A stretch of DNA of 18,475 nt from Candidatus Bathyarchaeia archaeon (GTDB lineage Archaea > Thermoproteota > Bathyarchaeia > Bathyarchaeales > Bathycorpusculaceae). Within the stretch, counting starts at the first letter, position 1, and every line of letters starts with the position of its first letter. The position numbers and the translations under genes are program-made. The notes under the pieces were generated by a model that saw only the letters and a list, made by a program, of their open reading frames with translations, made no database searches and was not told the origin of the DNA. Shown here in pieces: positions 3,274 to 18,030 of this stretch. The DNA lies in NCBI GenBank assembly GCA_038883795.1, contig JAVZLK010000032.1:1-18475 (forward strand). Direction: 5' to 3'.

Positions 3274-3711
3274 AAAGCCTTGAGGTCAAGTTGCCTGCTC
3301 ATCGCTGTTCCGCTTGATGAAAAAGCAGGTGACAGCCCAAGCCCGATTGACCTTGCCAAAACCGTTGATGTGCAATTGCGAGCAATTTTCTCAGCCGTTC
3401 GCAAAGACAACTTTTTCCAAATGAAGACTTTGTTGTTGCATCGCAAAATAGGGTCCGAGCCTTGGCCTGTTCCAAACCCAACCCAGCTGATTCCTGCGGT
3501 GCATAAGGGTAGTGGCGTTGGTGTTTTCCTCGATTTTAAATTGTTAACTCAGCTTGACAAGGACATGAACCGTGCGGTTTGGAGTCCCGAAGCATGGCAG
3601 CTTGAAGCTGCCTTGGAAGTAATCAGGTGGAGCCAGAAGGCAACGCATGATCTTTTGGGCAGACCCTTCGGCGGAAAAATGCCCTATGCAGAATTAGCAG
3701 ACTTCATGTGA
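3270..3711 (+). pseudogene. Hypothetical protein, probably a degenerate member of the same decayed operon
   Basis: A 143-aa protein-like frame (3280..3711). The GTGA-coupled start at 3270 is out of frame with it. No family recognised. Confidence 0.4.
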
Positions 3712-3754
3712 GGCTTTAAGATGGAGTGTATGCTTTGTTTTCCGTTTACGCTCG

Positions 3755-4381
3755 CGCGGCGACGAATTATGCGGAGTCATAGTCTACTGCTATCCGCCAC
3801 CCACATGCTTCGGAAGAAGACTTGTTCTGCCAAAGATGTCTATGAAGGAGCTGAACGAGAAGCTAAGCATAATAAGCCGAGTAGTCGTGCACCCAAAATA
3901 TCGAACAATAGGCTTAGGCACCAAACTTGTTAAAGAAACACTACCCTTAGTTGGAACGCCTTACGTGGAAATGCCAGCGGTCATGGCAAAATACAATCCT
4001 TTCGCAGAAAAAGCAGGAATTCAAAAGATAATCGAACAACCACCACCAAAAGAAGCCTTAAAAATAGCAGAAATCCTGCAAAAACACGGGTTCAATGTTC
4101 AATTACTTAGCAGCGAAAAATACGTCTTGAACAAGCTGAAAACCCTCGATAACAGACAAATAGCAACCATAAAAAAAGCATTCATCACACACAGCCACGC
4201 ACGCTTCATGAAAAACTTCTTCCCTCACCAACCCTTCGGAGACAAGAAAACCTACACTAAAGAGTTATCAGAAGCAAGTGCTGGAAGACTTGCACACTTA
4301 ATCAAAGTCTGCAGCTATCTGCTGCAAACCAAGGTATATCTTTTCTGGCAGGCTGGCTACTTTAATCTTGACCGATTTTAG
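3755..4381 (+). pseudogene. 5'-truncated GNAT acetyltransferase half of a COG2401-type (ABC ATPase-GNAT fusion) gene
   Basis: The frame of ORF 3836..4381 extends upstream as RGDELCGVIVYCYPPPTCFGRR, followed by ISRVVVHPKYRTIGLG (acetyl-CoA-binding motif A) and AVMAKYNPFAEKAG. An in-frame TAG lies at 3695 and no ATPase domain is present upstream. Confidence 0.7.
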
Positions 4382-4570
4382 CATTCTTGGAAGTATTTCG
4401 ATTGCCGATATTCTTACAGAAGAATATCGAATTATCCACTCTATCTGGGAACTTGTTAACAGCTCTTCTTCATTCCCAAAGCGTTCATGCAAAAAATAAA
4501 TAGAAGTTCATATAAAAAATTGTAGAGAGAGGCGAGTAAAACTGCTTATGCTATATTTGAGGTGAAACAA

Positions 4571-5398
4571 GTGGCTGTGTCTGATACGGAATTGTTAGAT
4601 TGCGTAAACTCCTTTGAACAGCTTGAGAGACCATCTAAAATAATAGAAAAGTGCAGAAAAGCAGTTCAAAAAGGACTTGACCCTGTTTCTAAAGCTATTG
4701 TTTATGGTCTTTTGATGAGCACATACGCCAAGGAAGAGGATTTGGAAAAAACTCATCAGGCGTTGCTTAGTGCGAGAGAGGCTTTGGGAGAAGCTATCGG
4801 CTTAACAGGAGATGAGTTAAAGACGTTTGTTTCTAACGCACGCTTAGAAGATCGAATTTTTCGCGCTATTGATGATAAAATCGATCCAAGAGAGAAATTA
4901 GCCGAAAACTCAATGTTAAGAGATATTATGCTTTGCCCACTTTATCCTTTGAGATCTGATGATTTTCGGGAGGATTTAACAGAAAATGAAAAGATAGAGG
5001 CAACACTTAGATGGTGCAGTGATTTTCCAGGCGTTATACTATATCTCTTACTGGGGGACCTCTGGGCTCCCTACAATATAGACTATGCGATAAAGTGCTT
5101 TAAAATATTAAAAAAACATGAGGCTGATGGCCGCCCACCTCAAACAATACCCACAATTGCAGAACTTGCGGCTGGATATAAATTAGGCAAGTTATATAAG
5201 ACTAAAGGCGATCTTGCTTCTGCAAAAAAGGAGTTCGAGGATGTTATATCCGCCCGCTCACATACTGAATGGCATAACCAGTCAGATGAGGAAAGACAAT
5301 TGGCAGAGCACTGGATTTTGAAAGCAGAAGAGGATCTCGCTGATGCCGAGCGACGGTTGCCTAAACGTGGACTATTCGGTCGCCTCCTGAAATTTTAG
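4571..5398 (+). CDS. TPR-like alpha-helical protein with a C-terminal amphipathic tail
   Basis: TPR-like segments (LYLLLGDLW...AIKCFK; AGYKLGKLYKTKGDLASAKKEFEDVI) and the ending PKRGLFGRLLKF. GAGGTGA at 4559-4565 looks like the RBS, so GTG 4571 is preferred over 4562. Confidence 0.75.
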   Translation: MAVSDTELLDCVNSFEQLERPSKIIEKCRKAVQKGLDPVSKAIVYGLLMSTYAKEEDLEKTHQALLSAREALGEAIGLTGDELKTFVSNARLEDRIFRAIDDKIDPREKLAENSMLRDIMLCPLYPLRSDDFREDLTENEKIEATLRWCSDFPGVILYLLLGDLWAPYNIDYAIKCFKILKKHEADGRPPQTIPTIAELAAGYKLGKLYKTKGDLASAKKEFEDVISARSHTEWHNQSDEERQLAEHWILKAEEDLADAERRLPKRGLFGRLLKF

Positions 5399-5432
5399 AC
5401 GAAAAAGCAAGTTTTATGGTAGATGTGAAGTA

Positions 5433-5591
5433 ATGGCAAAACGAATATGTGATGTCTGTGGCAAAGAGAAAGATGTGAAGGGAGGAAAAGTGTGTGCTAA
5501 TGGGCATTTTGTATGCTCAGATTGTGTTTATGGCGGGTTTTTCGGACCGACACGGACAACATGTCCTTTATGTGGTAAACCTCTAAGATAG
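5433..5591 (+). CDS. Stand-alone 52-aa C3HC4 (RING-HC) zinc-finger protein
   Basis: Below the ORF-track cutoff. MAKRICDVCGKEKDVKGGKVCANGHFVCSDCVYGGFFGPTRTTCPLCGKPLR* gives C6-x2-C9-x11-C21-x3-H25-x2-C28-x2-C31-x12-C44-x2-C47. It starts 34 nt after the TPR gene on the same strand. Confidence 0.85.
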   Translation: MAKRICDVCGKEKDVKGGKVCANGHFVCSDCVYGGFFGPTRTTCPLCGKPLR

Positions 5592-5733
5592 AGTATATTC
5601 CTATCAAGAACATTCAAATTCCTCTTCAAAGTCCCACGAAGCTTCAAAAGAACAAAAAGAATGGATTTGCGGGTGATTTCTCCCTGCGGTGATTGTTGTA
5701 AAATATCTACTTTTTTAACTGTAAAAGGAAGTT

Positions 5734-6759
5734 TTAAGAAAGGTATTTTTTAATGAAATTGGCTACATCTATGGTTTCTATTCTGGAACCGCAATGGCTA
5801 CAGTATTGAATAGCTTCAGCTGTGGTTTCCCCGCTAATACGCACTGGTGCCCCGCAATGAGAGCAGTGATAGGTGATAGTGAAACCCCTTTCGCCCAATT
5901 GCCGAATTAAAGCATTTAAATCAAGCACAACGACCTCTCTTTTCTTACGCCTCATCTCCCCCGCCTTTTCCGGCATACCCAACTCTTCATAAATCCGCGC
6001 AGCCTCTTCGTAGCGCCCAACCTTTTCAAGATACTCCAAGTGGGGTTTAAGTCTCTTAAAATGTCGCATATACGCCTGTTGTAAAAGCTCTTCTCGCTTA
6101 AGTTTCACTCTGCTATATAGATCAGGATCATAAAATTTTGCGGAAAAAACATTATTGTCAACGTCCCAACCCACAGCCCAAACCTCTCCCGAACCTTCAC
6201 TCCCAATTCCGAAAATATTAGGCCAATCTGAATTACCCCACAAATTCTCGTAATCAGCCTTATACTCATTACCATAGCGGGATTCAACCGTATCCGTCCT
6301 TATACTTATGGCCCTTGGCTCACCAAAGTATGATTCCCACTCATCTATATCTGGCATATAGCCTCGGTATATCTCTTTCACATTATTGACATCAGCTACG
6401 AAAATGTTTGGAAAGAAAATTGCTATATGCCTTTCTCTCTCTTCTTTAATAACTTTCACTTTAGGCTGAGCCGCAAACGGTAAGCTTACCCAAAACACAA
6501 GAACAGCTAAAAGTGCAAGAGCGACGAATGCATATCGCCATGTTTCTGTAATGTAAGATGCAATAAAAGGTCCAATAAAAGGTCCAAGAGCGATTATAAC
6601 CACTAGGAACAATAAACTGGCCAACGCAATATACTTGGGGTAGTTCTCCTTTCGACGCACTTCTTCGATATATTTATGCTTTACTATAACTTCCGTGCCT
6701 TCTTCAGACCCTCTCTTCGCTCCGCTTCTAACTTGAATTGGAATATAACTATCTTCCAT
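5734..6759 (-). CDS. Membrane protein with two TM helices, a TPR-like helix pair and a C-terminal zinc ribbon
   Basis: Two hydrophobic stretches (~aa 43-70 and 76-96), GRYEEAARIYEELGMPEKAGEMRR, and CSHCGAP...YCSHCGS. GGAGG RBS upstream. Confidence 0.85.
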   Translation of the reverse strand: MEDSYIPIQVRSGAKRGSEEGTEVIVKHKYIEEVRRKENYPKYIALASLLFLVVIIALGPFIGPFIASYITETWRYAFVALALLAVLVFWVSLPFAAQPKVKVIKEERERHIAIFFPNIFVADVNNVKEIYRGYMPDIDEWESYFGEPRAISIRTDTVESRYGNEYKADYENLWGNSDWPNIFGIGSEGSGEVWAVGWDVDNNVFSAKFYDPDLYSRVKLKREELLQQAYMRHFKRLKPHLEYLEKVGRYEEAARIYEELGMPEKAGEMRRKKREVVVLDLNALIRQLGERGFTITYHCSHCGAPVRISGETTAEAIQYCSHCGSRIETIDVANFIKKYLS

Positions 6760-6791: not shown

Positions 6792-7178
6792 TTAGACAAT
6801 AGTTTTTCCCAAGTTAGGTTTTTTAGATTTTTTCAAGGAAGCTAATTCTCTTTCTTCCTCCGCTGTCAACCCTTCTTTCTTTTTCTTGCATTCCAGTTCG
6901 GCAACTCTCTCCTGCTTGATCTCCTTAACCATCAATCTTATTGCCTCAACATCGTTCATTTCATCAAAAGTCTTGCCGTATTTTTTGATTTGCCTTATTT
7001 TTTCTCTGGTTAATACAATAACATGTTGTATCCCTTTACTTGCCTCATTTTTGGGAATAAGCAGGGTTGCGTTACAGTAAGGGCACTTGACATACGAAAC
7101 ATCTTTAGTTATCTCTTCGGTTACATAAGCACCACAACGTGGACATCTGATAGCATGTGCTTCTCGCATAATCTTCAC
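6792..7178 (-). CDS. Zinc-ribbon protein with a charged helical C-terminus
   Basis: CPRCGA...CPYCNA. Co-oriented with, and 32 nt upstream of, the membrane zinc-ribbon gene. Confidence 0.8.
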   Translation of the reverse strand: MKIMREAHAIRCPRCGAYVTEEITKDVSYVKCPYCNATLLIPKNEASKGIQHVIVLTREKIRQIKKYGKTFDEMNDVEAIRLMVKEIKQERVAELECKKKKEGLTAEEERELASLKKSKKPNLGKTIV

Positions 7179-7430: not shown

Positions 7431-7450
7431 GAAAGGGGGTGAAGTGGGTA

Positions 7451-8497
7451 ATGAGGTATGTAGGTGTGGATATCAGCAAGAGGAAGTGTATGGTTGCGGT
7501 TGTTGATGGGGATGGCGTTTTGGTTGATGAGTTCAGCTTTGCTAATGATGTTGAAGGCATAAAACGGTTTGTTTCTAGGCTTTCAGAAGGCGATTCAGTA
7601 GTTATGGAGTCTACTGGCAATTTGTGGTTTAACTTGTTTGAGGCTGTTGAGGCTAATGGCGTTAGGGCAGTTTTGGCTAATCCTTTGAAGATGAAGGCTA
7701 TTGCTTCTGCTAAAATTAAGAATGATAGGGTTGATGCTAAGGTTTTAGCCTTTCTATTGCGCGGTGGGCTTGTGGCTGAATGTTATGTTCCGCCCAAAGA
7801 AGTTAGGGAGCTTAGGGCTTTGGTTAGGCATAGGGTTCAGCTTGTTAGGGCTGTTGGCATGGTGAAGAACCGAGTTCACAGTTTGCTTGACAGGCATGGG
7901 TTTAGGCATAACTTTTCAGATGTTTTCGGCCGGGCTGGGTTGGAGTGGCTTAGACGTTTGGAGGTTAAGCCTTTGGATAGGCTTCTATTGGAAAGCTACA
8001 TTGAACAAATTGAATGTCTTGAAAGGTTGATAAGGAGGGTTGATGCTGAAATCGAAGGAAAAGCTGCCATAGATGGGGATGTTAGGCTACTGCTTAGCTT
8101 GACTGGCGTTGGCGTTTGTTCGGCTTTGCTTATTAAGAGCGAGATCGGCGATATCAAGCGTTTTCCAAACTATAAGAAGCTTGTCAGCTGGGCTGGTTTG
8201 GCTCCTTCTCTTTACCAGTCTGGGAATACTATGCGTTATGGGCGTATTACGAAGCAGGGTTCTAAGCTGCTTAGGTGGGTTATGGTTGAATGCGCCAGAG
8301 TTGCTGTCCGCTATGATGTTAGGCTTGGCGAGTTTTATAGGCGGGTTAGGCGTAGGCGTGGTGAGCAGAAGGCTTTGGTTGCTGTTGCTTGTAAGATGTT
8401 GAAGATCATATGGTTTATGTTGACTCGTAGGGAGCCTTACCATTCCATGAATGAACGTTTATACGGCGATAAGCTTTATAGGCTTTTGAGGCATTAG
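7451..8497 (+). CDS. IS110-family transposase/recombinase
   Basis: RuvC-like DEDD residues (YVGVDIS, VVMESTG, KNDRVDA) and a C-terminal domain with GVG, WAGLAPSLYQSG and ITKQGSKLLR. GGGGGTGA at 7435-7442 favours ATG 7451 as the start. Confidence 0.97.
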   Translation: MRYVGVDISKRKCMVAVVDGDGVLVDEFSFANDVEGIKRFVSRLSEGDSVVMESTGNLWFNLFEAVEANGVRAVLANPLKMKAIASAKIKNDRVDAKVLAFLLRGGLVAECYVPPKEVRELRALVRHRVQLVRAVGMVKNRVHSLLDRHGFRHNFSDVFGRAGLEWLRRLEVKPLDRLLLESYIEQIECLERLIRRVDAEIEGKAAIDGDVRLLLSLTGVGVCSALLIKSEIGDIKRFPNYKKLVSWAGLAPSLYQSGNTMRYGRITKQGSKLLRWVMVECARVAVRYDVRLGEFYRRVRRRRGEQKALVAVACKMLKIIWFMLTRREPYHSMNERLYGDKLYRLLRH

Positions 8498-10041: not shown

Positions 10042-11172
10042 ATGAAAAGAATTGTTTCTGAAATAATGACAGTCTTATTTCTTACAAGCATGTTAATATC
10101 GGCGTTTAACATTCAACCTGTGAAGTGCGAGTGGACTGGGGGAACCATATATATTAGCACTGATGGAAGCATAGAGCCGGCAAATGCACCAGTAATAACT
10201 TACGATTATGTGACTTATACCTTAACTGATAACATTGGAAGCTCCGCGCATGGAATCGTTATCAAAAGAGACAACATTATAATTAATGGAATGGGCTACA
10301 CAATTCGGTGCATAGGCTCAGGCTCTTACAGAGGAATATCCCTTGAAAATAGGAAGAATGTTACAATAAAGAATACAAAAATAAAGAATTTCTATTATGG
10401 TATTTACTTTAATTATTCCTCAAACTGTGAAATATACGGGAATAGCATAACATCAAATACTGAAGGCATCTACTTTGGGGGCGATTCTTCAAATAATGCG
10501 ATATGTGAGAATGACATTGCAGTGGACGAGTGGATGAACTGCGGCATCCATCTCATATATTCCTCAAATAACACGATATACAAAAACAATATGATAGTGA
10601 CATCTGGAGATGGCATCCTAGTCGAGCAATCGTCGAATAATGAAATATGTGAAAACAGCATATGTGCCCAAATTCTATTTAATAGTTGGGCTGGTATATA
10701 TCTCAAGCAGTCCTCAAACAACAAGATATACGGAAATGACATAAAGGAAAATTCGAACGGCATTTACTTCGAAGGTTCCTCAAATAACGCTATTTATGGA
10801 AACAACTTAACACGGAACCGTGTGGGCATCTGGCTTCAACACGCCTCAAATAACAAGTTTTATCATAATAACTTCGTGCAAAACCAATGGTATCAAGTCT
10901 ATACTTTTAGTTCTGTAAATGTTTGGAACGATGGGTATCCTTCAGGTGGCAATTACTGGAGCGATTACTTGACGCTGTATCCTGGCGCTGACGAGCTGGA
11001 CAATTCTGGCTTATGGGATACGCCTTACGTTATTGACAAAGATAACCAAGATCACTATCCTTTAATACATATATATGCCATACCAGAATTCTCGTCAGCC
11101 ATAATCCTGCCACTATTATTAGCATCGACACTGCTGGTCGCCATATTCGCAAAAAGAAAAAATCCGAATTAA
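10042..11172 (+). CDS. Cell-surface NosD/CASH parallel beta-helix protein with PEF-CTERM sorting signal
   Basis: Signal peptide, repeated GIxLxxSSNNxIxxNxI turns, WNDGYPSGGNYWSDY, and C-terminal IPEF + TM helix + basic tail. Confidence 0.92.
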   Translation: MKRIVSEIMTVLFLTSMLISAFNIQPVKCEWTGGTIYISTDGSIEPANAPVITYDYVTYTLTDNIGSSAHGIVIKRDNIIINGMGYTIRCIGSGSYRGISLENRKNVTIKNTKIKNFYYGIYFNYSSNCEIYGNSITSNTEGIYFGGDSSNNAICENDIAVDEWMNCGIHLIYSSNNTIYKNNMIVTSGDGILVEQSSNNEICENSICAQILFNSWAGIYLKQSSNNKIYGNDIKENSNGIYFEGSSNNAIYGNNLTRNRVGIWLQHASNNKFYHNNFVQNQWYQVYTFSSVNVWNDGYPSGGNYWSDYLTLYPGADELDNSGLWDTPYVIDKDNQDHYPLIHIYAIPEFSSAIILPLLLASTLLVAIFAKRKNPN

Positions 11173-11440: not shown

Positions 11441-14400
11441 ATGAACAAGGCCATTTCTGGAGTAATGTTAACATTGCTAATTTTATCAAGTATGTTAGCT
11501 TTCGCGTTTAATATTCAACTAGTCAAGGCAGACTATGTATGGAAAGAAACCATTTACATTCGTGCAGATGGAAGTATAACACCTTCAGATGCACCTCTCT
11601 TTACGGCGGATAAGGTAACCTATGTGCTAACAGATAACATTGTAGATGCAGCTCCATATACCGGCGATACCGCAGTAATCATAGAAAGGGATAATATAGT
11701 GTTCAATGGGAATGGCTATACAATTCAAGGCAAAAATAAAGACCACACTTGCTATGGAATGGATCTTACTGGAAGAAGCAACGTCACGATCAAAAACTTA
11801 AACATTAAAAGCTTCGATTATTGCCTCCGCTTAGAATTTTCTTTAGGCAATACGCTGTATGAAAATAACATAGCAGACAACTATTATGGAGTTTATCTTG
11901 TGTCTTCCTCACAAAACATTCTGGCAGGAAATACTATTTCAAGAAACCGTAATTGTGGCGTTTATCTGGACGTATCTTCAAGCAATACTTTGCTCCGAAA
12001 TAATATTCTAAATAACCTTTATGATATTGAACTTTCATCCTCCGTCAGTAACACCATATTCGGAAACAACATAACAGATAGCAGTATGGCTGGTATTCTC
12101 TTAGGTGGTTCTTCTCGATATAACATGATTTTTGAGAATTACATATCAAACAATGGTTATGGCATCTGGATTTCAGGGACGGAAGACAACATTTTCTATC
12201 ACAATAATTTTGTAAACAATGGTATGCAAGTCTATTTTTCCTACACATGGCCAACGAATATATGGGATAATGGTTATCCCTCAGGTGGTAATTTTTGGAG
12301 CGACTACACAGGGGTTGACGAGAAAAGCGGTCCCTACCAGAATGAAACTGGAAGCGACGGAATAGGTGACACGCCATACATCATTAACGCTAATAATCGA
12401 GACCAGTATCCACTCATGAATCCACCAACTATGCCGTCAAAGCGGGATCAGTGGCCAATGTTTCGTCATGACAAGCAGCGAACGGGCAGAAGTGAATTCA
12501 ATGGTCCTCATACACCTCAAGTTAAATGGACCTTTGATACAGGCGGTAACGTTTTTTCACCAATAATAGGCTCTGATGGCACTATCTACGTGCATTCAGG
12601 TGGCAATAGCAAAAACCTTTACGCAATAAGCCGGGATGGTTCTTTGAAGTGGAGCTTCCACGTGGAGAGCTCTTACTCCGCTCCAGCCGTAGGACCAGAT
12701 GGTACCATATACTTCGGATCATACGATAAGAAATTTTACGCGTTAAATCCGAATGGAACATTAAAGTGGTATTTTCAAACAGGAGGATACATTTACTCTT
12801 GTCCCGCGATAGATTCTGATGGTACCATATACTTCGGATCATACGATGGATATTTATATGCCCTTAACCCAGATAGTACGCTTAAATGGGCATATTACGC
12901 TGGTCGCCAAATAGATACCTCTCCTGCTATATCATCTGATGGCACTATTTACGTGTTCTCAACTGGGTTCTCAATTAATGACCCGGCTATACTCTACGCC
13001 GTAACCTCTAACGGCACTCTGAAATGGACTTATAAGGCGCCTATGGGCGTTATTGCATGTTCTTGCCCTGCTATAGGTTCAGATGGTACGATATATTTCG
13101 GATGCTTTGACGGTAAACTTTACGCTTTAAACCCCGATGGAAGCTTGAAGTGGAATTATCAAGCACAAGATGACATCGTCTCTTCTCCTGCAATAGGACC
13201 CGATGGTACCATATACTTCGGATCATACGATAAAAGATTCTATGCTTTAAACACTGATGGTAGCTTAAAATGGTGGCGCTGGACAGAGGGCCCCATTTAC
13301 TCATCCGCTGCTGTAGGAGCTGATGACACAGTATACTTCGGATCCTCTGATGGATATATTTACGCCTTTAACCCTGATAGCACTCTTAAGTGGAGCTACC
13401 AAACGGGTTATGCGATTGGCTCATCTCCAGCAATAGGCTCAGACGGTAGCCTATTTATAGGTGCAGGTCCAATACTCTACGCTTTTGGCACTGGCTCAGA
13501 CTTCCTAATTAAAGCTTCCCCAACTTTATTAACTATTCAACAAGGCAGTTCAGCCGAATCGACCATCACGGTAACATCCATAAATGGCTTCAGCCAACCT
13601 GTTCAACTAAGTGTGTCCGGGGCGCCTTCTGGAGTTACGGCAATCTTAAATCCGGTGCAGGTTACACCGCCTTCAGACGGCTCAACTACTTCTATCTTAA
13701 CAGTATCGGTTGATGCAACAGTTAATGTTGGAACTTACACTTTAACTGTGATTGGAACAAACGGCACTCTAACCCATAGTGTGGATATCTTTTTGCATGT
13801 AGTAGCTTTGCCAAAGTTTGTTTTGGTTCCTTCTGAGGGTTGGCAACGCTTGGAGCTTTTCGTTCCAACATGGCGGCGTTCCGCTGAATATCCTGGAAAA
13901 GTGGTGTTTGAAATTTTTAACAAGCGTGACATGTGGTATATTATTAAAGTCTACAAGAGGATGCCTGACAATACTTGGCAGGAGGTGATTCCCGACGAAT
14001 TTTTAAGCCTAACTGGACCATATCTGGGACCTTATAGTGTTAAAACTTTCGTTTTTCCATACGTTCTTGAAGAAGGCGATGAGATAAAGATTGAAGTTTG
14101 GAATGACTTGAACGACAATGCACTTCGCGCCCTATGGGCTTTAGACTTTAGCGTGAGAGCTTTGCTGGGAATATCCATATCACCTCAAATCACAAACTGG
14201 CCTGAAATCAAAACCAAACTTCTAACATTCTATAATGGCTACTTGGAAGCTATAGGGAATCTTTGCCTCGGAAAATGGAAGCTTGGGCTATTGCAGCTGT
14301 GTAAGGCTTTGGTGGGAAGTGCTGCGTCAAGGGAATTTGCCGAAATAATTAATCTCCTCGGAGTTCAAACAACAGCTGCAACCATAGCCAGAATCGCCTT

Positions 14401-15751
14401 CAAAGTTATAACATCAGCTTTTTGGCTAATTCCAAACGTACCATTATGGTGGCCCCTGTTTGAAAATATGAACAGAGAACCGTTCATGGAAGATGTCATT
14501 TTTACGGTTAAGGGAACTGGGACAGAGCTCCCTAATCTGAAGGTGATCGAAGGCTTAACAATAGTTCAAAGTGAGCCATATTATGTAGGCGAAACTATTG
14601 ATGCCCAATTCACCTTAAGAAGTGAAGATGAATCACCAGTAACATTACATGTGTTAATGGTTGGAGGACTTGGACCTCGGGGAGAAATCCAAGACTTCAC
14701 CTTCAAGACTAATATAACGATTAATCCAGGCCAATCCTACATGTATGAAGGCAAAATGCAATTAATAAGTAATGGCACATACCATTTCTTCATAGCCTAC
14801 CAAACTCCTGAAGGAGAATGGGTCACCAACGTGCCAACGGATGCTGACGCAGTAAACTCCCTAGACATCAATGTTCAAATTCCAGAAGTTCTTATTGGGG
14901 CTGAGCTTTGCAGTCCAGGAGAATTGCGGATTTATGACTCTCAAGGCAGGGTTACTGGCTTATTAAACGGTGAGGAATTAATGGAAATTCCTAACTCATT
15001 CTATCATGACGGCATAGTTGTCATATACTATCCAAACGACTCCTATAGGTTTCAAGTTAAGGGTGTAAGTGAAGGAGAATACAACATAACCTTAGGAAGA
15101 TTTTTCTATGAAAACTTAACAACGTTTGAAGCTACAAGAATACCAATAAGTAACAATTCTCTGCATCAATTCACCTGCGACTGGGACACCCTCTCCATAA
15201 ACGAGGAGGGCGTCCTCATTTACGTGGATTCAGACGGCGACAACTTTTTCGAGAAAACCTTCCCCTCAGATAGTGAGTTAACAGCCAAAGAGTTTATGTT
15301 CCCAGCGAAGGCGACATTCACATTTAATGCCCTCTGGGAGGGTGCTAACTACCCCATCACCATGTACAGTAGCAACTCTTCAATAACAAACTTCAACTTC
15401 AACCAATCAGAGAAGCAAATAACCTTTCAATTATCAGGCGAAGCAGATGAATCTGGCTATTGTAACGTTTCCATACCAAAAACTCTTCTTAAGGGCGAAC
15501 CTTGGATTGTTAAGCTTAATGGAACAAACTGGAACTATACAGCGACAGAAAACGAAACCCACAGCTTCATATACATCACTTATACGTTTGGCAGCGCTTT
15601 CGAAGTTGCAATCCAAGGAACATGGGTCGTGCCAGAATTCTCGTCAACCATAATTTTAACATTATGCATGCTTACAATTTTAGTCATAACCATTCTCATA
15701 AGAAAAAACAAAATTCCTAAAATCCTAAGGCAGAAAATTATACATTTGTGA
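11441..15751 (+). CDS. Large multidomain surface protein: NosD beta-helix, PQQ/BamB-like beta-propeller, Ig-like domains, unknown helical region, PEF-CTERM
   Basis: Signal peptide, beta-helix turns and WDNGYPSGGNFWSDY, then WPMFRHDKQRTG and ~8 repeats of SSPAIGxDGTIYFGSYDxxLYALNPDGSLKW, an Ig-like Ser/Thr-rich module, and C-terminal VPEF + TM + basic tail. Confidence 0.92.
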   Translation: MNKAISGVMLTLLILSSMLAFAFNIQLVKADYVWKETIYIRADGSITPSDAPLFTADKVTYVLTDNIVDAAPYTGDTAVIIERDNIVFNGNGYTIQGKNKDHTCYGMDLTGRSNVTIKNLNIKSFDYCLRLEFSLGNTLYENNIADNYYGVYLVSSSQNILAGNTISRNRNCGVYLDVSSSNTLLRNNILNNLYDIELSSSVSNTIFGNNITDSSMAGILLGGSSRYNMIFENYISNNGYGIWISGTEDNIFYHNNFVNNGMQVYFSYTWPTNIWDNGYPSGGNFWSDYTGVDEKSGPYQNETGSDGIGDTPYIINANNRDQYPLMNPPTMPSKRDQWPMFRHDKQRTGRSEFNGPHTPQVKWTFDTGGNVFSPIIGSDGTIYVHSGGNSKNLYAISRDGSLKWSFHVESSYSAPAVGPDGTIYFGSYDKKFYALNPNGTLKWYFQTGGYIYSCPAIDSDGTIYFGSYDGYLYALNPDSTLKWAYYAGRQIDTSPAISSDGTIYVFSTGFSINDPAILYAVTSNGTLKWTYKAPMGVIACSCPAIGSDGTIYFGCFDGKLYALNPDGSLKWNYQAQDDIVSSPAIGPDGTIYFGSYDKRFYALNTDGSLKWWRWTEGPIYSSAAVGADDTVYFGSSDGYIYAFNPDSTLKWSYQTGYAIGSSPAIGSDGSLFIGAGPILYAFGTGSDFLIKASPTLLTIQQGSSAESTITVTSINGFSQPVQLSVSGAPSGVTAILNPVQVTPPSDGSTTSILTVSVDATVNVGTYTLTVIGTNGTLTHSVDIFLHVVALPKFVLVPSEGWQRLELFVPTWRRSAEYPGKVVFEIFNKRDMWYIIKVYKRMPDNTWQEVIPDEFLSLTGPYLGPYSVKTFVFPYVLEEGDEIKIEVWNDLNDNALRALWALDFSVRALLGISISPQITNWPEIKTKLLTFYNGYLEAIGNLCLGKWKLGLLQLCKALVGSAASREFAEIINLLGVQTTAATIARIAFKVITSAFWLIPNVPLWWPLFENMNREPFMEDVIFTVKGTGTELPNLKVIEGLTIVQSEPYYVGETIDAQFTLRSEDESPVTLHVLMVGGLGPRGEIQDFTFKTNITINPGQSYMYEGKMQLISNGTYHFFIAYQTPEGEWVTNVPTDADAVNSLDINVQIPEVLIGAELCSPGELRIYDSQGRVTGLLNGEELMEIPNSFYHDGIVVIYYPNDSYRFQVKGVSEGEYNITLGRFFYENLTTFEATRIPISNNSLHQFTCDWDTLSINEEGVLIYVDSDGDNFFEKTFPSDSELTAKEFMFPAKATFTFNALWEGANYPITMYSSNSSITNFNFNQSEKQITFQLSGEADESGYCNVSIPKTLLKGEPWIVKLNGTNWNYTATENETHSFIYITYTFGSAFEVAIQGTWVVPEFSSTIILTLCMLTILVITILIRKNKIPKILRQKIIHL
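12698..13231 (+). repeat. Three identical 30-nt blocks in the propeller repeats
   Basis: GATGGTACCATATACTTCGGATCATACGAT at 12698-12727, 12818-12847 and 13202-13231. Confidence 0.9.
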
Positions 15752-16643: not shown

Positions 16644-17807
16644 TTAGGGGATTTGGGGTTTTGTTTCTTCCTTTTTCTTCAGAGGAACTGTTACGATTAA
16701 AGTGGCTAGCACGAATAGTGGTAAAATTATGATTGATGGAAATTCTGGCACGACCTTCATAAGCGGATACCTGTCTTTGTTGTTCTCATCTATAACGTAT
16801 GCTGTGTCACCTATTCCATCTCCATTTGCATCAACACCAGTGTAATCGCTCCAGTAGTTTCCACCAGAAGGGTAGCCATCATCCCAAACATTAGGACTGC
16901 TGTCGCTATAAACTTGCTGGGTGTTGTTTACGAAGTTGTTATGGTAAAACTTGTTGTATGTTGCGAACTCTATATAAATGCCATACGTATTTTTTGTTAT
17001 ATTGTTTCCGGATATTATATTATTTTGAAGAGGGCTGCTTGAATAACCTTCCATACGAATGCCATACGTATTTCTTGTTATATTGTTTCCGAATATTATG
17101 TCGGAAAAGTCGAGATCAATACCACTCTTACTGTTTGCTATGATGTTCCCTGATATTGTTATACGTTGCGATCCGACATTGATGCCTGTGCCGCTTTTTG
17201 CTGTTATATTGTTTTCATATATTTTGTTGTCAAGGCAAGACCAGTAGGTGCCGCCCCCAACGACGATACCATCTCCAACATCTACTGACACTATGTTTTG
17301 AAATATTAGATTGTCATAACAATTACCCAAAAGATAGATGGCAGCCCTGTTGTATCCTGTCGCCATTATACTATTTTGGAATATTGTATTGTTTGAACAG
17401 TGACTAATCAGATAGATGCCCCACCAGTTGTTTGCTAAGCTATTTTCAAATATTTTACAGTTTGAAGAATACTCGAGATAAATGCCATAATCGCTGTCCC
17501 TTATATATGTGTTCTTGATTGTTATATTAGCTCTATTGCTGAGTCGGATTGCTCCTCCCTGAACCATGTAGCCTCCGCCGTCAAAAACTATGTTATCCCT
17601 CTCAATAACAATTCCTTCGTATACATTATTGGTTAACGTATAGGTAATGTTGTCGATCGTCGAAATTGGTGCGAGCGGAGGATAAATTGAACCGTCACCT
17701 TTAATGTATATGGTTGAGCCAGTTTTGGCTGATTGAATGTTAAATGCAAACATTAACGTGCCTATTAAAAGCAGACCTAACATTACGCTAGAAATAATTT
17801 TCTTCAT
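16644..17807 (-). CDS. Cell-surface NosD/CASH parallel beta-helix protein with PEF-CTERM sorting signal
   Basis: Start placed at MKKIISS (17807) by alignment with the paralogs MKRIVSE and MNKAISG. Has WDDGYPSGGNYWSDY, DGIGDTAYVID and VPEF + TM + basic tail. Confidence 0.92.
   Translation of the reverse strand: MKKIISSVMLGLLLIGTLMFAFNIQSAKTGSTIYIKGDGSIYPPLAPISTIDNITYTLTNNVYEGIVIERDNIVFDGGGYMVQGGAIRLSNRANITIKNTYIRDSDYGIYLEYSSNCKIFENSLANNWWGIYLISHCSNNTIFQNSIMATGYNRAAIYLLGNCYDNLIFQNIVSVDVGDGIVVGGGTYWSCLDNKIYENNITAKSGTGINVGSQRITISGNIIANSKSGIDLDFSDIIFGNNITRNTYGIRMEGYSSSPLQNNIISGNNITKNTYGIYIEFATYNKFYHNNFVNNTQQVYSDSSPNVWDDGYPSGGNYWSDYTGVDANGDGIGDTAYVIDENNKDRYPLMKVVPEFPSIIILPLFVLATLIVTVPLKKKEETKPQIP
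16977..17099 (-). repeat. Internal 42-nt duplication (2 mismatches, 81-nt period) in beta-helix turns
   Basis: 16977-17018 versus 17058-17099, encoding GNNITKNTYGI and GNNITRNTYGI. Confidence 0.85.
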
Positions 17808-18030
17808 TTTCCTTTCTTCTTCACTCATACAATCACGCATTTTACTATGTTCATTTTTGTTTTAAAATTTTCGCACACAACTAAGAAATATGCTCTATTT
17901 TAGAGATTTACTCATTATTTTTGTTTTATCCATCGTATTCCATCTCCGTCTATTATCGTATCTCCTTGCAATGTTGCTTTCTCCGTTATGCCTTCTCCGT
18001 TAGCATAGAGAGTATCATGTTCCTCCAATC

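What the first reader, a model, noticed from the sequence alone, without database searches (positions are those of the whole stretch)
4571..5591. Unannotated stand-alone RING-HC protein paired with a TPR-like protein: possible split E3-ligase-like module
Seen in sequence: a 52-aa ORF (5433..5591) fits the canonical C3HC4 RING spacing, with CANGHFVCSDC and CPLCGKPL recalling SINA/Siah-type RINGs. It lies 34 nt behind a TPR-like gene. Established: RING domains recruit E2 enzymes, small RING proteins act in archaeal ubiquitylation (Caldiarchaeum subterraneum), and TPR plus U-box is the layout of eukaryotic CHIP. Inference: a two-gene substrate adaptor plus RING unit. No ubiquitin, E1, E2 or JAB gene is present in this window.
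Basis: partly seen in the sequence, partly recalled or inferred. Interest (0 to 1): 0.72.

Follow-up and report, generated by a model that had tools for sequence, protein, structure and literature searches.

The report
Stand-alone RING-like zinc finger gene
A tiny, strongly conserved two-zinc RING-like protein gene sits next to a helical-repeat scaffold gene in a microbe where no ubiquitin machinery was found, so it is more likely a binding adaptor than a ubiquitin ligase.

Summary
ORF 5433..5591 (+) encodes 52 aa with C-x2-C-x11-C-x3-H-x2-C-x2-C-x12-C-x2-C, 34 nt behind an all-helical TPR-like gene. It is a real gene. The profile search found 144 protein clusters. The ligands are near-invariant, and pN was below pS in 376 of 376 pairs. 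The AlphaFold model (pLDDT 80.8) lies nearest to RING, ZZ and PHD cross-brace fingers, with SIAH1 RING first in Foldseek.

The family is patchy across many bacterial and archaeal phyla. It was not found in 38 of 40 relatives of this genome.

The pairing is partly real. Of 92 distinct family members, 28 have a TPR, HEAT or ankyrin gene directly adjacent on the same strand. Others sit in J-domain/vWA operons.

The E3-ligase reading is not supported. The own genome gave no E2, ubiquitin or JAB match. Canonical E2 was found in 1 of 28 other host genomes. No ubiquitin-system gene appeared among about 285 neighbour proteins. Two of four E2-contact positions are non-canonical.

Best reading: an E2-independent zinc-finger adaptor micro-protein, mechanism unproven.

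The parts
4562..5398 (+). TPR-like all-helical (alpha-solenoid) protein gene, 278 aa from GTG 4562 or 275 aa from GTG 4571. It is the candidate scaffold partner of the finger.
   Evidence: ORF. Pfam TPR_8 scores 20.5 bits, below the 25.7 cut-off. The AlphaFold model has pLDDT 90.7 and 15 helices. Foldseek gives LGN TPR, consensus TPR, 14-3-3 and Pex5 TPR at prob 1.0, but E>=1.4e-3 and TM 0.25-0.35. The protein collection holds only 5 other clusters. Homologues lie next to the finger in L010, L012 and L082, and two genes away in L080 and L085.
5399..5432 (+). 34-nt intergenic spacer between the two same-strand genes. Co-transcription is likely but is an inference.
   Evidence: Sequence. No transcript data could be obtained.
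5433..5591 (+). 52-aa stand-alone RING-like (C3HC4, predicted cross-brace, two-zinc) finger micro-protein. Net charge about +5.
   Evidence: Searches give the ORF and ligands. Searches show conservation. One search shows purifying selection. One search gives the model. Searches place it nearest RING/ZZ/PHD folds. Searches give sub-threshold RING Pfam hits.

Best explanation
The 52-aa ORF encodes a genuine stand-alone binuclear RING-like zinc finger. It is predicted to be a treble clef in which ligand pairs 1+3 and 2+4 each hold one zinc. It belongs to a small, unnamed, strongly conserved micro-protein family scattered across bacteria and archaea.

The family is encoded again and again directly beside genes for protein-interaction scaffolds. 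These are TPR, HEAT and ankyrin solenoids, or vWA and J-domain proteins. The window's TPR-like gene is one such partner.

Most likely the finger is an E2-independent, zinc-stabilised docking or adaptor subunit. It would bind the neighbouring scaffold, a common target, or both, through its invariant basic and glycine-rich first loop (GKEKDVxGGK) and its CP[LI]C..K tail. It does not ligate ubiquitin.

Shown: the gene is real and under selection, it has RING-like ligands and a RING-like predicted fold, its neighbours are recurrent, and no E2 or Ub matches were found. Inferred: zinc binding, the cross-brace pairing, physical binding to the scaffold, and the adaptor role.
For: Real gene under selection:
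- 19 close homologues.
- 144 clusters at E<=1e-3 among 1.84 billion representatives, nearly all 43-117 aa.
- pN<pS in 376 of 376 pairs, mean pN 0.189 against pS 0.729.

Ligands: in 47 sequences C6, C9, C21 and C44 are invariant, and H25, C28, C31 and C47 are at 90% or more. Asp replaces ligand 6 in 13 and ligand 8 in 21 of 167 full-pattern sequences.

Fold:
- pLDDT 80.8, with the helix starting at C28xxC31.
- Foldseek's top rows are almost all RING or U-box. SIAH1 RING is first (TMq 0.60, rmsd 2.5, 33% id, prob 0.99, E 0.076).
- A Foldseek-independent scan of 48,161 chains puts RING, ZZ, PHD and LIM fingers on top at Z 3-4.8.
- Family members hit zf-RING_5 (35 of 47), Sina_RING (22 of 47) and Prok-RING_4 (16 of 47) at E<=0.01.

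Scaffold neighbours:
- 28 of 92 distinct fingers have a TPR/HEAT/ANK-class gene adjacent on the same strand, and 34 have one within two genes.
- That class makes up 30 of 112 adjacent ORFs of 100 aa or more, against 4 of 198 ORFs three or more genes away.
- Pfam confirmed TPR in 12 of 13 adjacent cluster-0 members, and confirmed ankyrin, HEAT, vWA and DnaJ representatives.
- The window's own TPR-like family stays next to the finger although gene order changes.

No ubiquitin route: and no Ub-system family among the neighbours.
Against: - 36 of 92 distinct fingers have none of the recurrent partner classes within two genes. Some sit beside housekeeping genes such as pheS/pheT (L006). So the finger may act alone.
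- The most conserved surface is constant while the partners differ (TPR, HEAT, ANK, vWA, a 114-aa family). That fits a common target better than partner-specific docking.
- Neighbour class tracks the poorly resolved finger tree only weakly: 25 changes against a shuffle mean of 32 and minimum of 28.
- The class labels came from recurrent neighbour clusters. Some members had no Pfam hit (L036, L048, L078, L059), so the enrichment figures are biased upward.
- All fold matches have Z<5 and Foldseek E>=0.076. RING cannot be separated from ZZ or PHD by structure.
- Every Pfam RING hit of the window protein is below the gathering score.
- No binding, zinc or expression data exist.
Confidence: 0.5

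Rival explanations
1. Component of a conflict or defence-type or signalling island. Variable repeat proteins (TPR, HEAT, ANK, WD40, LRR) or vWA/J-domain proteins would sense something. The constant RING-like micro-protein would transmit or assemble the response, for example by oligomerising. This overlaps with the adaptor reading but specifies the biological role.
For: - The gene is patchy and not vertically inherited. It was found in 1 of 41 genomes of the window's genus, family and order, apart from two weak hits in larger frames.
- The loci hold IS or integrase genes and defence-type genes: IS110 in the window; MTase+HNH, SIR2_2, DruA+IS66+group II intron, and a HerA-like gene; AAA_15, Eco57I-type MTase, HEPN AbiV and HEPN RiboL-PSP; a type IIG RM and an E2-E1-JAB fusion near L007.
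- One fusion joins a DUF4145 domain, a HEPN family according to PMC3710099 passages, to the finger (P0074).
- Near-identical fingers have different partner classes.
Against: - No PADLOC model hits the finger, the TPR-like protein or the small partners.
- There was no match in IMG/VR contigs, phage records or plasmids.
- No effector (nuclease, protease, pore) is consistently adjacent.
- Synonymous sites between homologues are saturated, so spread is old rather than recent.
- The defence-gene neighbours are anecdotal and were not tested against a background.
Confidence: 0.2
2. One reading: a split RING E3 ubiquitin ligase, with the TPR-like protein as substrate adaptor and the finger recruiting an E2~Ub.
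For: - C3HC4 spacing and a RING-like predicted fold.
- Conserved Pro and Leu/Ile after ligand 7, which are two RING E2-contact positions: P in 149 of 167 and L/I/V in 161 of 167.
- Adjacency to solenoid, vWA, WD40 and LRR proteins resembles eukaryotic E3 substrate receptors.
- One host, a Heimdallarchaeota MAG, has UQ_con genes.
Against: - Own genome (87% complete): 0 UQ_con, 0 ubiquitin, 0 Prok-JAB and 0 JAB/MPN matches.
- UQ_con was found in 1 of 28 other host genomes. Prok-E2_A was found in 1 of 29.
- 0 of about 285 neighbour proteins hit E1, E2, Ub or JAB families.
- The single nearby E2-E1-JAB gene (L116) lies about 7.4 kb away, across an opposite-strand restriction gene.
- The C1+2 position is mostly A/S/K/N. 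C6+4 is mostly Gly. The linchpin position C8+1 is Gly in 89 of 167.
- The loop carrying the RING helix shrinks to 5-6 residues in 33 of 167 members.
- No fusion to any Ub-system domain was seen.
Confidence: 0.06
3. E3-like specificity factor for E2-less Ubl conjugation. This would be SAMP/ThiS/MoaD-type modifiers activated by a ThiF-type E1, with the scaffold neighbour choosing the target.
For: - The own genome has one strong ThiF-family gene and three ThiS/MoaD-family genes.
- Such components occur in both bacteria and archaea, which would fit the family's range.
- The architecture resembles RING plus adaptor.
Against: - ThiF and ThiS are near-universal sulfur-carrier genes. The control rang in 14 and 12 of 14 genomes, so their presence says little.
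- None lies in the window or in any scanned neighbourhood.
- No JAB-type protease was found in the own genome.
Confidence: 0.06
4. Small basic zinc-finger regulator that binds nucleic acid or a large enzyme, like haloarchaeal CPxCG micro-proteins or small anti-sigma zinc fingers. On this reading its neighbours are incidental.
For: - Mean net charge is +5.3, with an invariant K/R-R at the N-terminus.
- It is stand-alone and 45-60 aa.
- There are weak NCBIfam hits of family members to the HVO_2142 zinc-finger family (E 0.002-0.003, far below cut-off).
- CsfB and ribosomal zinc proteins appear among the low-Z fold matches.
- 36 of 92 fingers have no recurrent partner.
Against: - It does not explain the adjacent-gene enrichment for interaction scaffolds.
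- The family's best sequence and fold matches are RING, ZZ and PHD protein-binding fingers.
- No HTH or other regulator is consistently linked.
Confidence: 0.1

Closest known systems
Eukaryotic RING-HC (C3HC4) domains, nearest SIAH/Sina RING
   Same: Eight ligands in C3HC4 order and spacing. It has GHxxCxxC and CPxC signatures. SIAH1 RING-ZnF1 (9g0l) is the first Foldseek hit at 33% identity over 48 columns. Sina_RING is hit by 22 of 47 members at E<=0.01.
   Different: It is a stand-alone 52 aa with no further domains. The hosts lack E2 and Ub matches. The hydrophobic E2-contact residues at C1+2 and C6+4 and the basic linchpin are mostly missing. All scores are below Pfam cut-offs.
Prokaryotic RING fingers of Burroughs, Iyer and Aravind 2011 (Pfam Prok-RING_1/2/4)
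   Same: These are RING-like binuclear treble clefs in bacteria and archaea. That paper's abstract, as I recall it, states that not all prokaryotic RINGs act with ubiquitin. Prok-RING_4 is hit by 16 of 47 members, best E 2e-6.
   Different: The window protein scores 15.9 bits against a cut-off of 27. The described Ub-linked families sit with E1, E2 and JAB genes (passage of PMC7159879), and this family does not. I could not read the 2011 paper (not held), so I cannot say whether this family is in its catalogue.
Small RING E3 of the Caldiarchaeum subterraneum Ub/E1/E2/RING/DUB cluster
   Different: There the RING lies in one cluster with Ubl, E1, E2 and DUB. Here none of these is in the window or in about 285 scanned neighbours, and no E2, Ub or JAB match was found in the genome.
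CHIP (TPR + U-box Hsp70 co-chaperone E3)
   Same: A helical-repeat module is paired with a RING-class fold. Elsewhere the family sits with J-domain proteins in six loci: L040, L046, L050, L060, L099 and L100. L050 also has a vWA protein fused to a DnaK substrate-binding domain, and the L099 J-domain protein carries a cyclophilin domain.
   Different: Here there are two genes, not one chain. The finger keeps its zinc ligands, which a U-box lacks. The window's genome gave no HSP70 match and no E2 match.
ZZ domains (p62, Nbr1, CBP, KCMF1)
   Same: They are binuclear cross-brace fingers of the same size that bind peptides without an E2. Their Z-scores (3.5-4.2) equal those of RINGs.
   Different: ZZ ligand pattern and sequence signatures differ. 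No ZZ Pfam model appeared among the hits. ZZ is reported as eukaryote-only (passage of PMC4506424).
Haloarchaeal CPxCG zinc-finger micro-proteins (e.g. Brz, HVO_2142 family)
   Same: They are stand-alone zinc-binding proteins of 45-60 aa with CxxCG knuckles. There are weak NCBIfam hits to HVO_2142. Brz is known to me only from the listing and abstract of PMC2253796.
   Different: Those are one- or two-ribbon C4 fingers. This family has the C3HC4 RING order and RING-like predicted fold.

Membership tests
RING finger superfamily (binuclear cross-brace treble clef) | Eight zinc ligands in the order C3HC4 with canonical spacing | tested here: met
   The spacing is C-x2-C-x11-C-x3-H-x2-C-x2-C-x12-C-x2-C. 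The ligands are invariant or at least 90% conserved in 47 sequences. 1 window segment fits the pattern, against 0 in 200 shuffles.
RING finger superfamily (binuclear cross-brace treble clef) | Overall fold like solved RING-class fingers | tested here: met
   The AlphaFold model has pLDDT 80.8. The Foldseek top list is almost all RING or U-box. A wide VIA scan of 48,161 chains is topped by RING, ZZ, PHD and LIM fingers. This rests on a predicted model only, all Z<5 and E>=0.076, and RING is not separable from ZZ or PHD.
RING finger superfamily (binuclear cross-brace treble clef) | Cross-brace ligation: pairs 1+3 bind one zinc and pairs 2+4 bind the other | not testable with these tools
The only indirect sign is that the predicted helix starts at C28xxC31, where a treble clef supplies its second ligand pair.
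RING finger superfamily (binuclear cross-brace treble clef) | Reaches the gathering score of a Pfam RING model | tested here: not met
   For the window protein, zf-RING_5 scores 20.4 against 27.9, zf-C3HC4_3 18.7 against 27 and Sina_RING 15.4 against 29.3. At family level 35 of 47 members hit zf-RING_5 at E<=0.01.
RING-type E3 ubiquitin ligase (function) | An E2 conjugating enzyme in the same genome | tested here: not met
   UQ_con gave 0 hits in the own genome, which is 87% complete, and hit 1 of 28 other host genomes. Prok-E2_A hit 1 of 29. Prok-E2_B hit 0 of 29, but its control rang nowhere, so that search is inconclusive.
RING-type E3 ubiquitin ligase (function) | Linkage to Ub/Ubl, E1, E2 or JAB genes | tested here: not met
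   No such family was hit among the window ORFs or among about 285 neighbour proteins from the related loci (at E limits from 1e-3 to 1e-8). The one exception lies about 7.4 kb away in L116.
RING-type E3 ubiquitin ligase (function) | Canonical E2-contact residues: hydrophobic at C1+2 and C6+4, Pro at C7+1, basic linchpin at C8+1 (positions recalled from c-Cbl, BRCA1 and RNF4) | tested here: not met
   In 167 full-pattern sequences, C1+2 is A 43, S 30, V 29, K 21, N 17. C6+4 is G 70, R 20, H 17. C8+1 is G 89, K 34, R 9. Only C7+1 (Pro in 149) and C7+2 (L/I/V in 161) are RING-like.
RING-type E3 ubiquitin ligase (function) | Stimulates E2~Ub discharge or substrate ubiquitylation | not testable with these tools
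   This needs a biochemical assay.
Prok-RING_4 (PF14447) | Score at or above the gathering cut-off (27 bits) | tested here: inconclusive
   The window protein scores 15.9 bits, E 0.012. 16 of 47 members hit at E<=0.01, best 2e-6. It is probably related, but membership is not shown.
CHIP-like TPR + U-box co-chaperone ligase | TPR module joined to a U-box, acting on Hsp70/Hsp90 with an E2 | tested here: not met
   The TPR-like protein is a separate gene. The finger keeps its zinc ligands, so it is a RING type and not a U-box. The own genome gave no HSP70 match and no E2 match.
TPR repeat family (for 4562..5398) | Pfam TPR model at gathering score | tested here: not met
   TPR_8 scores 20.5 against 25.7 and TPR_6 14.9 against 26.3. 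The homologue in L010 hits eight TPR models, all below cut-off.
TPR repeat family (for 4562..5398) | Helix-turn-helix repeat solenoid fold | tested here: inconclusive
   The model has 15 helices and pLDDT 90.7. Foldseek gives LGN TPR, designed consensus TPR, Pex5 TPR and 14-3-3 at prob 1.0, but with TM 0.25-0.35 and E>=1.4e-3.
Double zinc ribbon (DZR_2, PF18912) | Score at gathering cut-off, and a fold of two ribbons | tested here: inconclusive
   It is the best single Pfam hit of the window protein, at 21 bits against 27. 13 of 47 members hit it. The fold question cannot be settled from a predicted model.

The most novel reading that the evidence does not exclude
The finger and its interchangeable partner (TPR, HEAT, ankyrin, vWA or J-domain) form a ubiquitin-independent 'RING plus substrate receptor' module. 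It is old, strongly conserved and present in both prokaryotic domains. It would work either as an E3-like specificity factor for E2-less Ubl conjugation (ThiS/MoaD-type modifiers with a ThiF-type E1, both present in this genome) or as a chaperone-coupled triage adaptor. If so, the RING-plus-adaptor logic of eukaryotic E3s such as CHIP would predate E2 enzymes and exist apart from them.
Probability: 0.1. Interest if true: 0.85.

Novelty: new variant of a known kind. Interest (0 to 1): 0.52.

Why it matters
RING fingers are usually read as ubiquitin-ligase modules. Here a RING-like fold is kept under strong purifying selection in many bacteria and archaea in which no E2 or ubiquitin gene was found. 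Its gene also sits beside the same kinds of proteins that serve as substrate receptors in eukaryotic E3s: TPR, HEAT, ankyrin, WD40, LRR and vWA.

If the physical pairing is confirmed, the family is a tractable 52-residue model for what RING-class fingers do without ubiquitin. It would also bear on how RING-plus-adaptor ligases arose.

On the practical side, it adds an unannotated micro-protein family that has no Pfam or NCBIfam model of its own. A second unannotated partner family of about 114 aa also goes missing from gene calls and annotation.

Tried and rejected
- Complex prediction on TPR-like (A3) plus finger (A2): no verdict, ipSAE 0.05 and 0.07 against a mark of 0.32, and the controls were not run. 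This is no evidence either way.
- The look-up of sequencing runs: no RNA holder listed. One DNA holder (X1) and two same-study rows hold next to none of the words.
A second call sent in the same turn failed on a missing field.
- Burroughs et al. 2011 (PMC5938088): not held. Whether the family is already catalogued there stays open.
- Paper searches for the family or its contexts found nothing specific. This covers only the held open-access library.
- No match in IMG/VR viral contigs (one peptide pattern), phage records or plasmids.
- PADLOC: no model for the finger, the TPR-like protein or the small partners.
- NCBIfam: none.
- ESM Atlas: only 'hypothetical protein' clusters for the finger, and nothing for the 114-aa partner.
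- PDB profile search with the 114-aa partner family: nothing below E 0.13.
- Zinc-ribbon folds did not appear near the top of the fold lists.
- Searching the metagenome records themselves for E1 failed because the records are not held. I scanned 118 more neighbour proteins by Pfam instead.
- Prok-E2_B search: the control rang nowhere, so it is uninformative.
- A 'split DnaJ zinc-finger' idea was dropped. The CxxCGxx knuckles do not fit the DnaJ CxxCxGxG motif (motif recalled), and the own genome has no HSP70 match.
- hhalign among 16 unannotated neighbour clusters joined only clusters 1 and 5.
Full report
**Observation.** One search lists an ATG-started ORF at 5433..5591 (+) of 52 aa, and one search shows its DNA. 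The cysteines and the histidine lie at 6, 9, 21, 25, 28, 31, 44 and 47. This gives C-x2-C-x11-C-x3-H-x2-C-x2-C-x12-C-x2-C, within the canonical C3HC4 RING spacing (consensus recalled). The upstream same-strand ORF ends at 5398, so the gap is 34 nt. Its longest frame starts at GTG 4562. Exactly one six-frame segment of the window fits the canonical regex, and none of 200 shuffles produced one.

**A real gene under strong selection.**
- The 5.8-billion-protein collection holds 19 close homologues of 46-58 aa at 65-81% identity.
- A profile search of 1.84 billion cluster representatives finds 144 clusters at E<=1e-3 and 65 at E<=1e-10. Nearly all are 43-117 aa.
- In a 47-sequence alignment, C6, C9, C21 and C44 are invariant. 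H25, C28, C31 and C47 are at least 90% conserved.
- Among 247 collected sequences, 167 show the full eight-ligand pattern. Asp replaces ligand 6 in 13 and ligand 8 in 21. The loop between ligands 6 and 7 ranges from 5 to 20 residues, with modes at 6 and 12.
- Among the 28 members of exactly 52 aa, all 376 non-identical pairs have pN<pS, with mean pN 0.189 against pS 0.729. Synonymous sites are near saturation. The protein is therefore old and tightly constrained, not a chance frame.
- One copy (L017) is broken by a stop.

**Fold.**
- With the 47-row alignment, AlphaFold2 gives mean pLDDT 80.8. It predicts three short strands and a helix that starts at C28xxC31. A treble clef places its second ligand pair there (inference).
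- Foldseek against the PDB gives no hit at E<=0.001. Its ranking is almost entirely RING or U-box domains. SIAH1 RING-ZnF1 comes first (E 0.076, prob 0.99, TMq 0.60, rmsd 2.5 over 48 columns, 33% identity), followed by TRIM21, RNF8, TRAF6, RNF125 and others.
- VIA-align on Foldseek's list, and independently on 48,161 representative chains, gives Z 3-4.8. The matches are an archaeal 30S zinc protein, the alpha-COP RING-like domain, ZZ domains (p62, Nbr1, CBP, KCMF1), RINGs (RNF213, TRAF3, SIAH1, RNF146, Nse1), and PHD and LIM fingers.
- These Z values are low in absolute terms, as expected for 52 residues. They place the model in the binuclear cross-brace class but do not separate RING from ZZ or PHD.
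- Sequence evidence favours RING. A profile search of PDB sequences returns mainly RINGs at weak E-values: RNF4 tandem construct 6.4e-5, arenavirus Z 0.011, TRIM5, MAT1 and RING2.
- Scanned one by one at E<=0.01, 35 of 47 members hit zf-RING_5, 22 Sina_RING, 16 Prok-RING_4, 13 zf-C3HC4_3 and 13 DZR_2.
- For the window protein itself every Pfam hit is below the gathering score. NCBIfam has no model.

**Distribution.**
- A scan of one genome per species found 29 loci. Their record titles name Dehalococcoidia, Chloroflexota, Caldiserica, Planctomycetaceae, Cloacimonadota, Acidobacteria, Ignavibacteria-type MAGs, Aminicenantes, Proteobacteria, Bacteroidales and Acholeplasmataceae. Among archaea they name Methanocellaceae, Heimdallarchaeota, ANME-1, Altiarchaeota and Methanogaster. 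Identity is 50-83%.
- Several loci lie on contigs of 90-600 kb, so binning error cannot explain all of this.
- A metagenome scan found 101 more relatives, of which 80 were kept.
- Among 40 other genomes of the window's genus, family and order, the profile found only two weak hits (E about 5e-4), both inside larger frames.
- The gene is thus accessory and patchy. In the window an IS110 transposase lies 1.8 kb downstream.
- No match was found in viral contigs, phage records or plasmids.

**Neighbourhoods.**
- I called ORFs in all 110 loci (29 + 80 + window), clustered neighbours by BLASTP and named clusters by Pfam on representatives.
- After collapsing identical fingers there are 92 distinct ones. 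Of these, 28 have a TPR/HEAT/ankyrin-class gene directly adjacent on the same strand, and 34 have one within two genes.
- 12-13 have a member of an unannotated family of about 105-140 aa. Clusters 1 and 5 belong to it and are homologous by hhalign (96.6%, E 5e-10).
- 5-6 have a vWA gene. 36 have none of the recurrent classes within two genes. 19 loci are cut on one side.
- As an internal control, the repeat class makes up 30 of 112 adjacent ORFs of 100 aa or more, 7 of 91 at distance two, and 4 of 198 further away.
- That contrast is inflated because the classes were defined from recurrent neighbours. Some cluster members also had no Pfam hit of their own (L036, L048, L078, L059).
- Pfam did confirm TPR in 12 of 13 adjacent members of the largest cluster, ankyrin in 2 of 2, and HEAT in 3 of 4 scanned.
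- The window's own TPR-like family is small, with 5 other clusters. Even so, it lies next to the finger in L010 (gap 13), L012 (gap 74, with an extra membrane domain) and L082 (downstream, gap 38). It lies two genes away in L080 and L085, fused to zinc ribbons. Adjacency kept through changes of order argues for functional linkage.
- Its AlphaFold model is all-helical (15 helices, pLDDT 90.7). The nearest folds are TPRs and 14-3-3, at prob 1.0 but TM 0.25-0.35. 'TPR-like solenoid' is therefore fair, but Pfam membership is not met.
- A second recurrent context is a J-domain / vWA / finger operon:
  - L040: beta-propeller, DnaJ, vWA, finger.
  - L050: DnaJ, vWA fused to a DnaK substrate-binding domain, finger.
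  - L100: DnaJ, vWA, finger, then TPR.
  - L060: DnaJ, vWA fragment, 131-aa protein, finger, TPR-TM2.
  - L046: finger, vWA, DnaJ.
  - L027: vWA, 144-aa protein, TerY-C, finger.
  - L099: DnaJ-cyclophilin, finger.
- Other neighbours include WD40, LRR, FHA+PP2C, HEPN, integrase, transposase and restriction-modification genes.
- On a poorly resolved tree, neighbour class changes 25 times, against a shuffle mean of 32 and a minimum of 28. Even near-identical fingers have different partners.

**Ubiquitin test.**
- The own genome (2.18 Mb, 87% complete) gave no UQ_con, ubiquitin, Prok-JAB or JAB/MPN match.
- It has one ThiF-type gene and three ThiS/MoaD genes. These are near-universal sulfur-carrier components.
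- UQ_con occurs in 1 of 28 other genomes carrying the finger. That one is the Heimdallarchaeota MAG, and the gene is not on the finger's contig as scanned.
- Prok-E2_A occurs in 1 of 29. There it is an E2-E1-JAB fusion about 7.4 kb from the finger, beyond an opposite-strand type IIG restriction gene.
- The Prok-E2_B search was uninformative.
- None of about 285 neighbour proteins submitted to Pfam hit an E1, E2, Ub or JAB family (E limits 1e-3 to 1e-8, so weak hits could be missed).
- None of the few fusions involves such a domain. They are DUF4145/HEPN, hemerythrin and membrane anchors.
- Of the four positions that contact E2 in canonical RINGs (recalled), only Pro at C7+1 and Leu/Ile at C7+2 are kept. 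C1+2 is mostly A/S/V/K/N, C6+4 mostly Gly, and the linchpin C8+1 is Gly in 89 of 167.
The second part of that criterion, that homologues are unlinked to TPR genes, is not met.

**Mechanism.** The best-supported reading is an E2-independent zinc-finger adaptor. It is a constant, basic micro-protein (mean net charge +5.3) whose most conserved surface is the first loop GKEKDVxGGK and the CP[LI]C..K tail. It would work with variable interaction scaffolds encoded next to it.
- What is shown is the gene, its selection, its ligands, its predicted fold class, its recurrent neighbours and the lack of E2 and Ub matches.
- Zinc binding, cross-brace pairing and any physical contact are inferred.
- A Hsp70-coupled version cannot be general, because the window's genome gave no HSP70 match.
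- The rivals are a role in conflict or defence-type islands, a true E3, an E3-like factor for E2-less Ubl conjugation, and a small nucleic-acid-binding or enzyme-binding regulator. They are laid out separately with odds.

**Comparison and novelty.** Prokaryotic RING-like fingers are a known kind. They are described by Burroughs et al. 2011, cited in PMC7159879 and PMC4506424. I could not read that paper itself. A small RING acts in the Caldiarchaeum Ub cluster (PMC11354881 passages). This family differs in three ways. It is a stand-alone 45-60 aa protein with no model in Pfam or NCBIfam. It lacks linked Ub genes. It has a consistent guild of solenoid, vWA and J-domain neighbours. My paper searches found no description of it, but they cover only the held open-access library. 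I rate it a new variant of a known kind, of moderate interest.

**Limits.**
- ORF calling was mechanical.
- Neighbour classes rest on representatives.
- Many metagenome loci are short.
- Taxon labels are those of MAG records.
- No expression data or complex verdict could be obtained (see Tried and rejected).

Noticed in passing
window 5734..6759 (-) and 6792..7178 (-): Two converging genes just downstream of the finger also carry zinc ribbons. One is a 341-aa protein with N-terminal membrane helices, a weak TPR-like stretch and a C-terminal CxxC...CxxC ribbon. The other is a 128-aa protein with an N-terminal ribbon. All Pfam hits are sub-threshold. Zinc-ribbon proteins also recur near the finger elsewhere (L025, L043, L072, L080, L085).
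   Followed up: partly
window 7439..8497 (+): An IS110-family transposase (DEDD_Tnp_IS110 + Transposase_20). A 40%-identical IS110 gene also lies six genes from the TPR-like/finger pair in L010.
   Followed up: partly
window 3280..4381 (+): ORF 3836..4381 holds only the C-terminal half of a GNAT acetyltransferase fold (weak hits). ORFs in other frames lie just upstream (3280..3711, 3721..3933), in a stretch of raised GC (0.483). This may be a frameshifted or split gene. A GNAT gene also lies two genes after the finger in L012.
   Followed up: no
window 10042..11172 (+), 11441..15751 (+), 16644..17840 (-): Three NosD/right-handed beta-helix proteins. One is a 1436-aa giant with added beta-propeller repeats. 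A related NosD protein with a zinc ribbon sits directly before the finger in L043.
   Followed up: no
L013:3461-3802, L015:985-1320, L018:756-1097, L028:4376-4687 and others: An unannotated family of about 105-140 aa, ending in acidic tails such as ...GGEEVIEY. It has no Pfam, NCBIfam, PADLOC or PDB match. It lies next to the finger for 12-13 of 92 distinct fingers. It is itself large and very conserved: 270 clusters at E<=1e-3, with the 120 best listed at 67-99% identity to the query.
   Followed up: partly
L040, L046, L050, L060, L099, L100, L027: Operons that join a C-terminal J-domain protein, a vWA protein and the finger. In one locus the vWA protein is fused to a DnaK substrate-binding domain, and in another locus a TerY-C protein stands in its place. 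One J-domain protein is fused to cyclophilin.
   Followed up: partly
L116 (G003:C26:98000-116000) 3508..5814: A 769-aa E2-E1-JAB fusion protein (PADLOC E1-E2 and JAB models), followed by a 1117-aa type IIG restriction-methylase on the other strand. It lies about 7.4 kb from the finger of L007, in a defence-island-like setting.
   Followed up: yes
P0127 (468 aa), P0074 (244 aa): Two odd relatives. P0127 has three copies of only the first half of the finger, separated by Thr-rich linkers, with weak Big_3 and dockerin hits and a signal-like N-terminus. P0074 fuses a DUF4145 (HEPN) domain to a complete finger.
   Followed up: no
L017:4001-4156: A copy of the finger gene in an Aminicenantes MAG is interrupted after residue 40 by a stop. 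It is a probable pseudogene.
   Followed up: no
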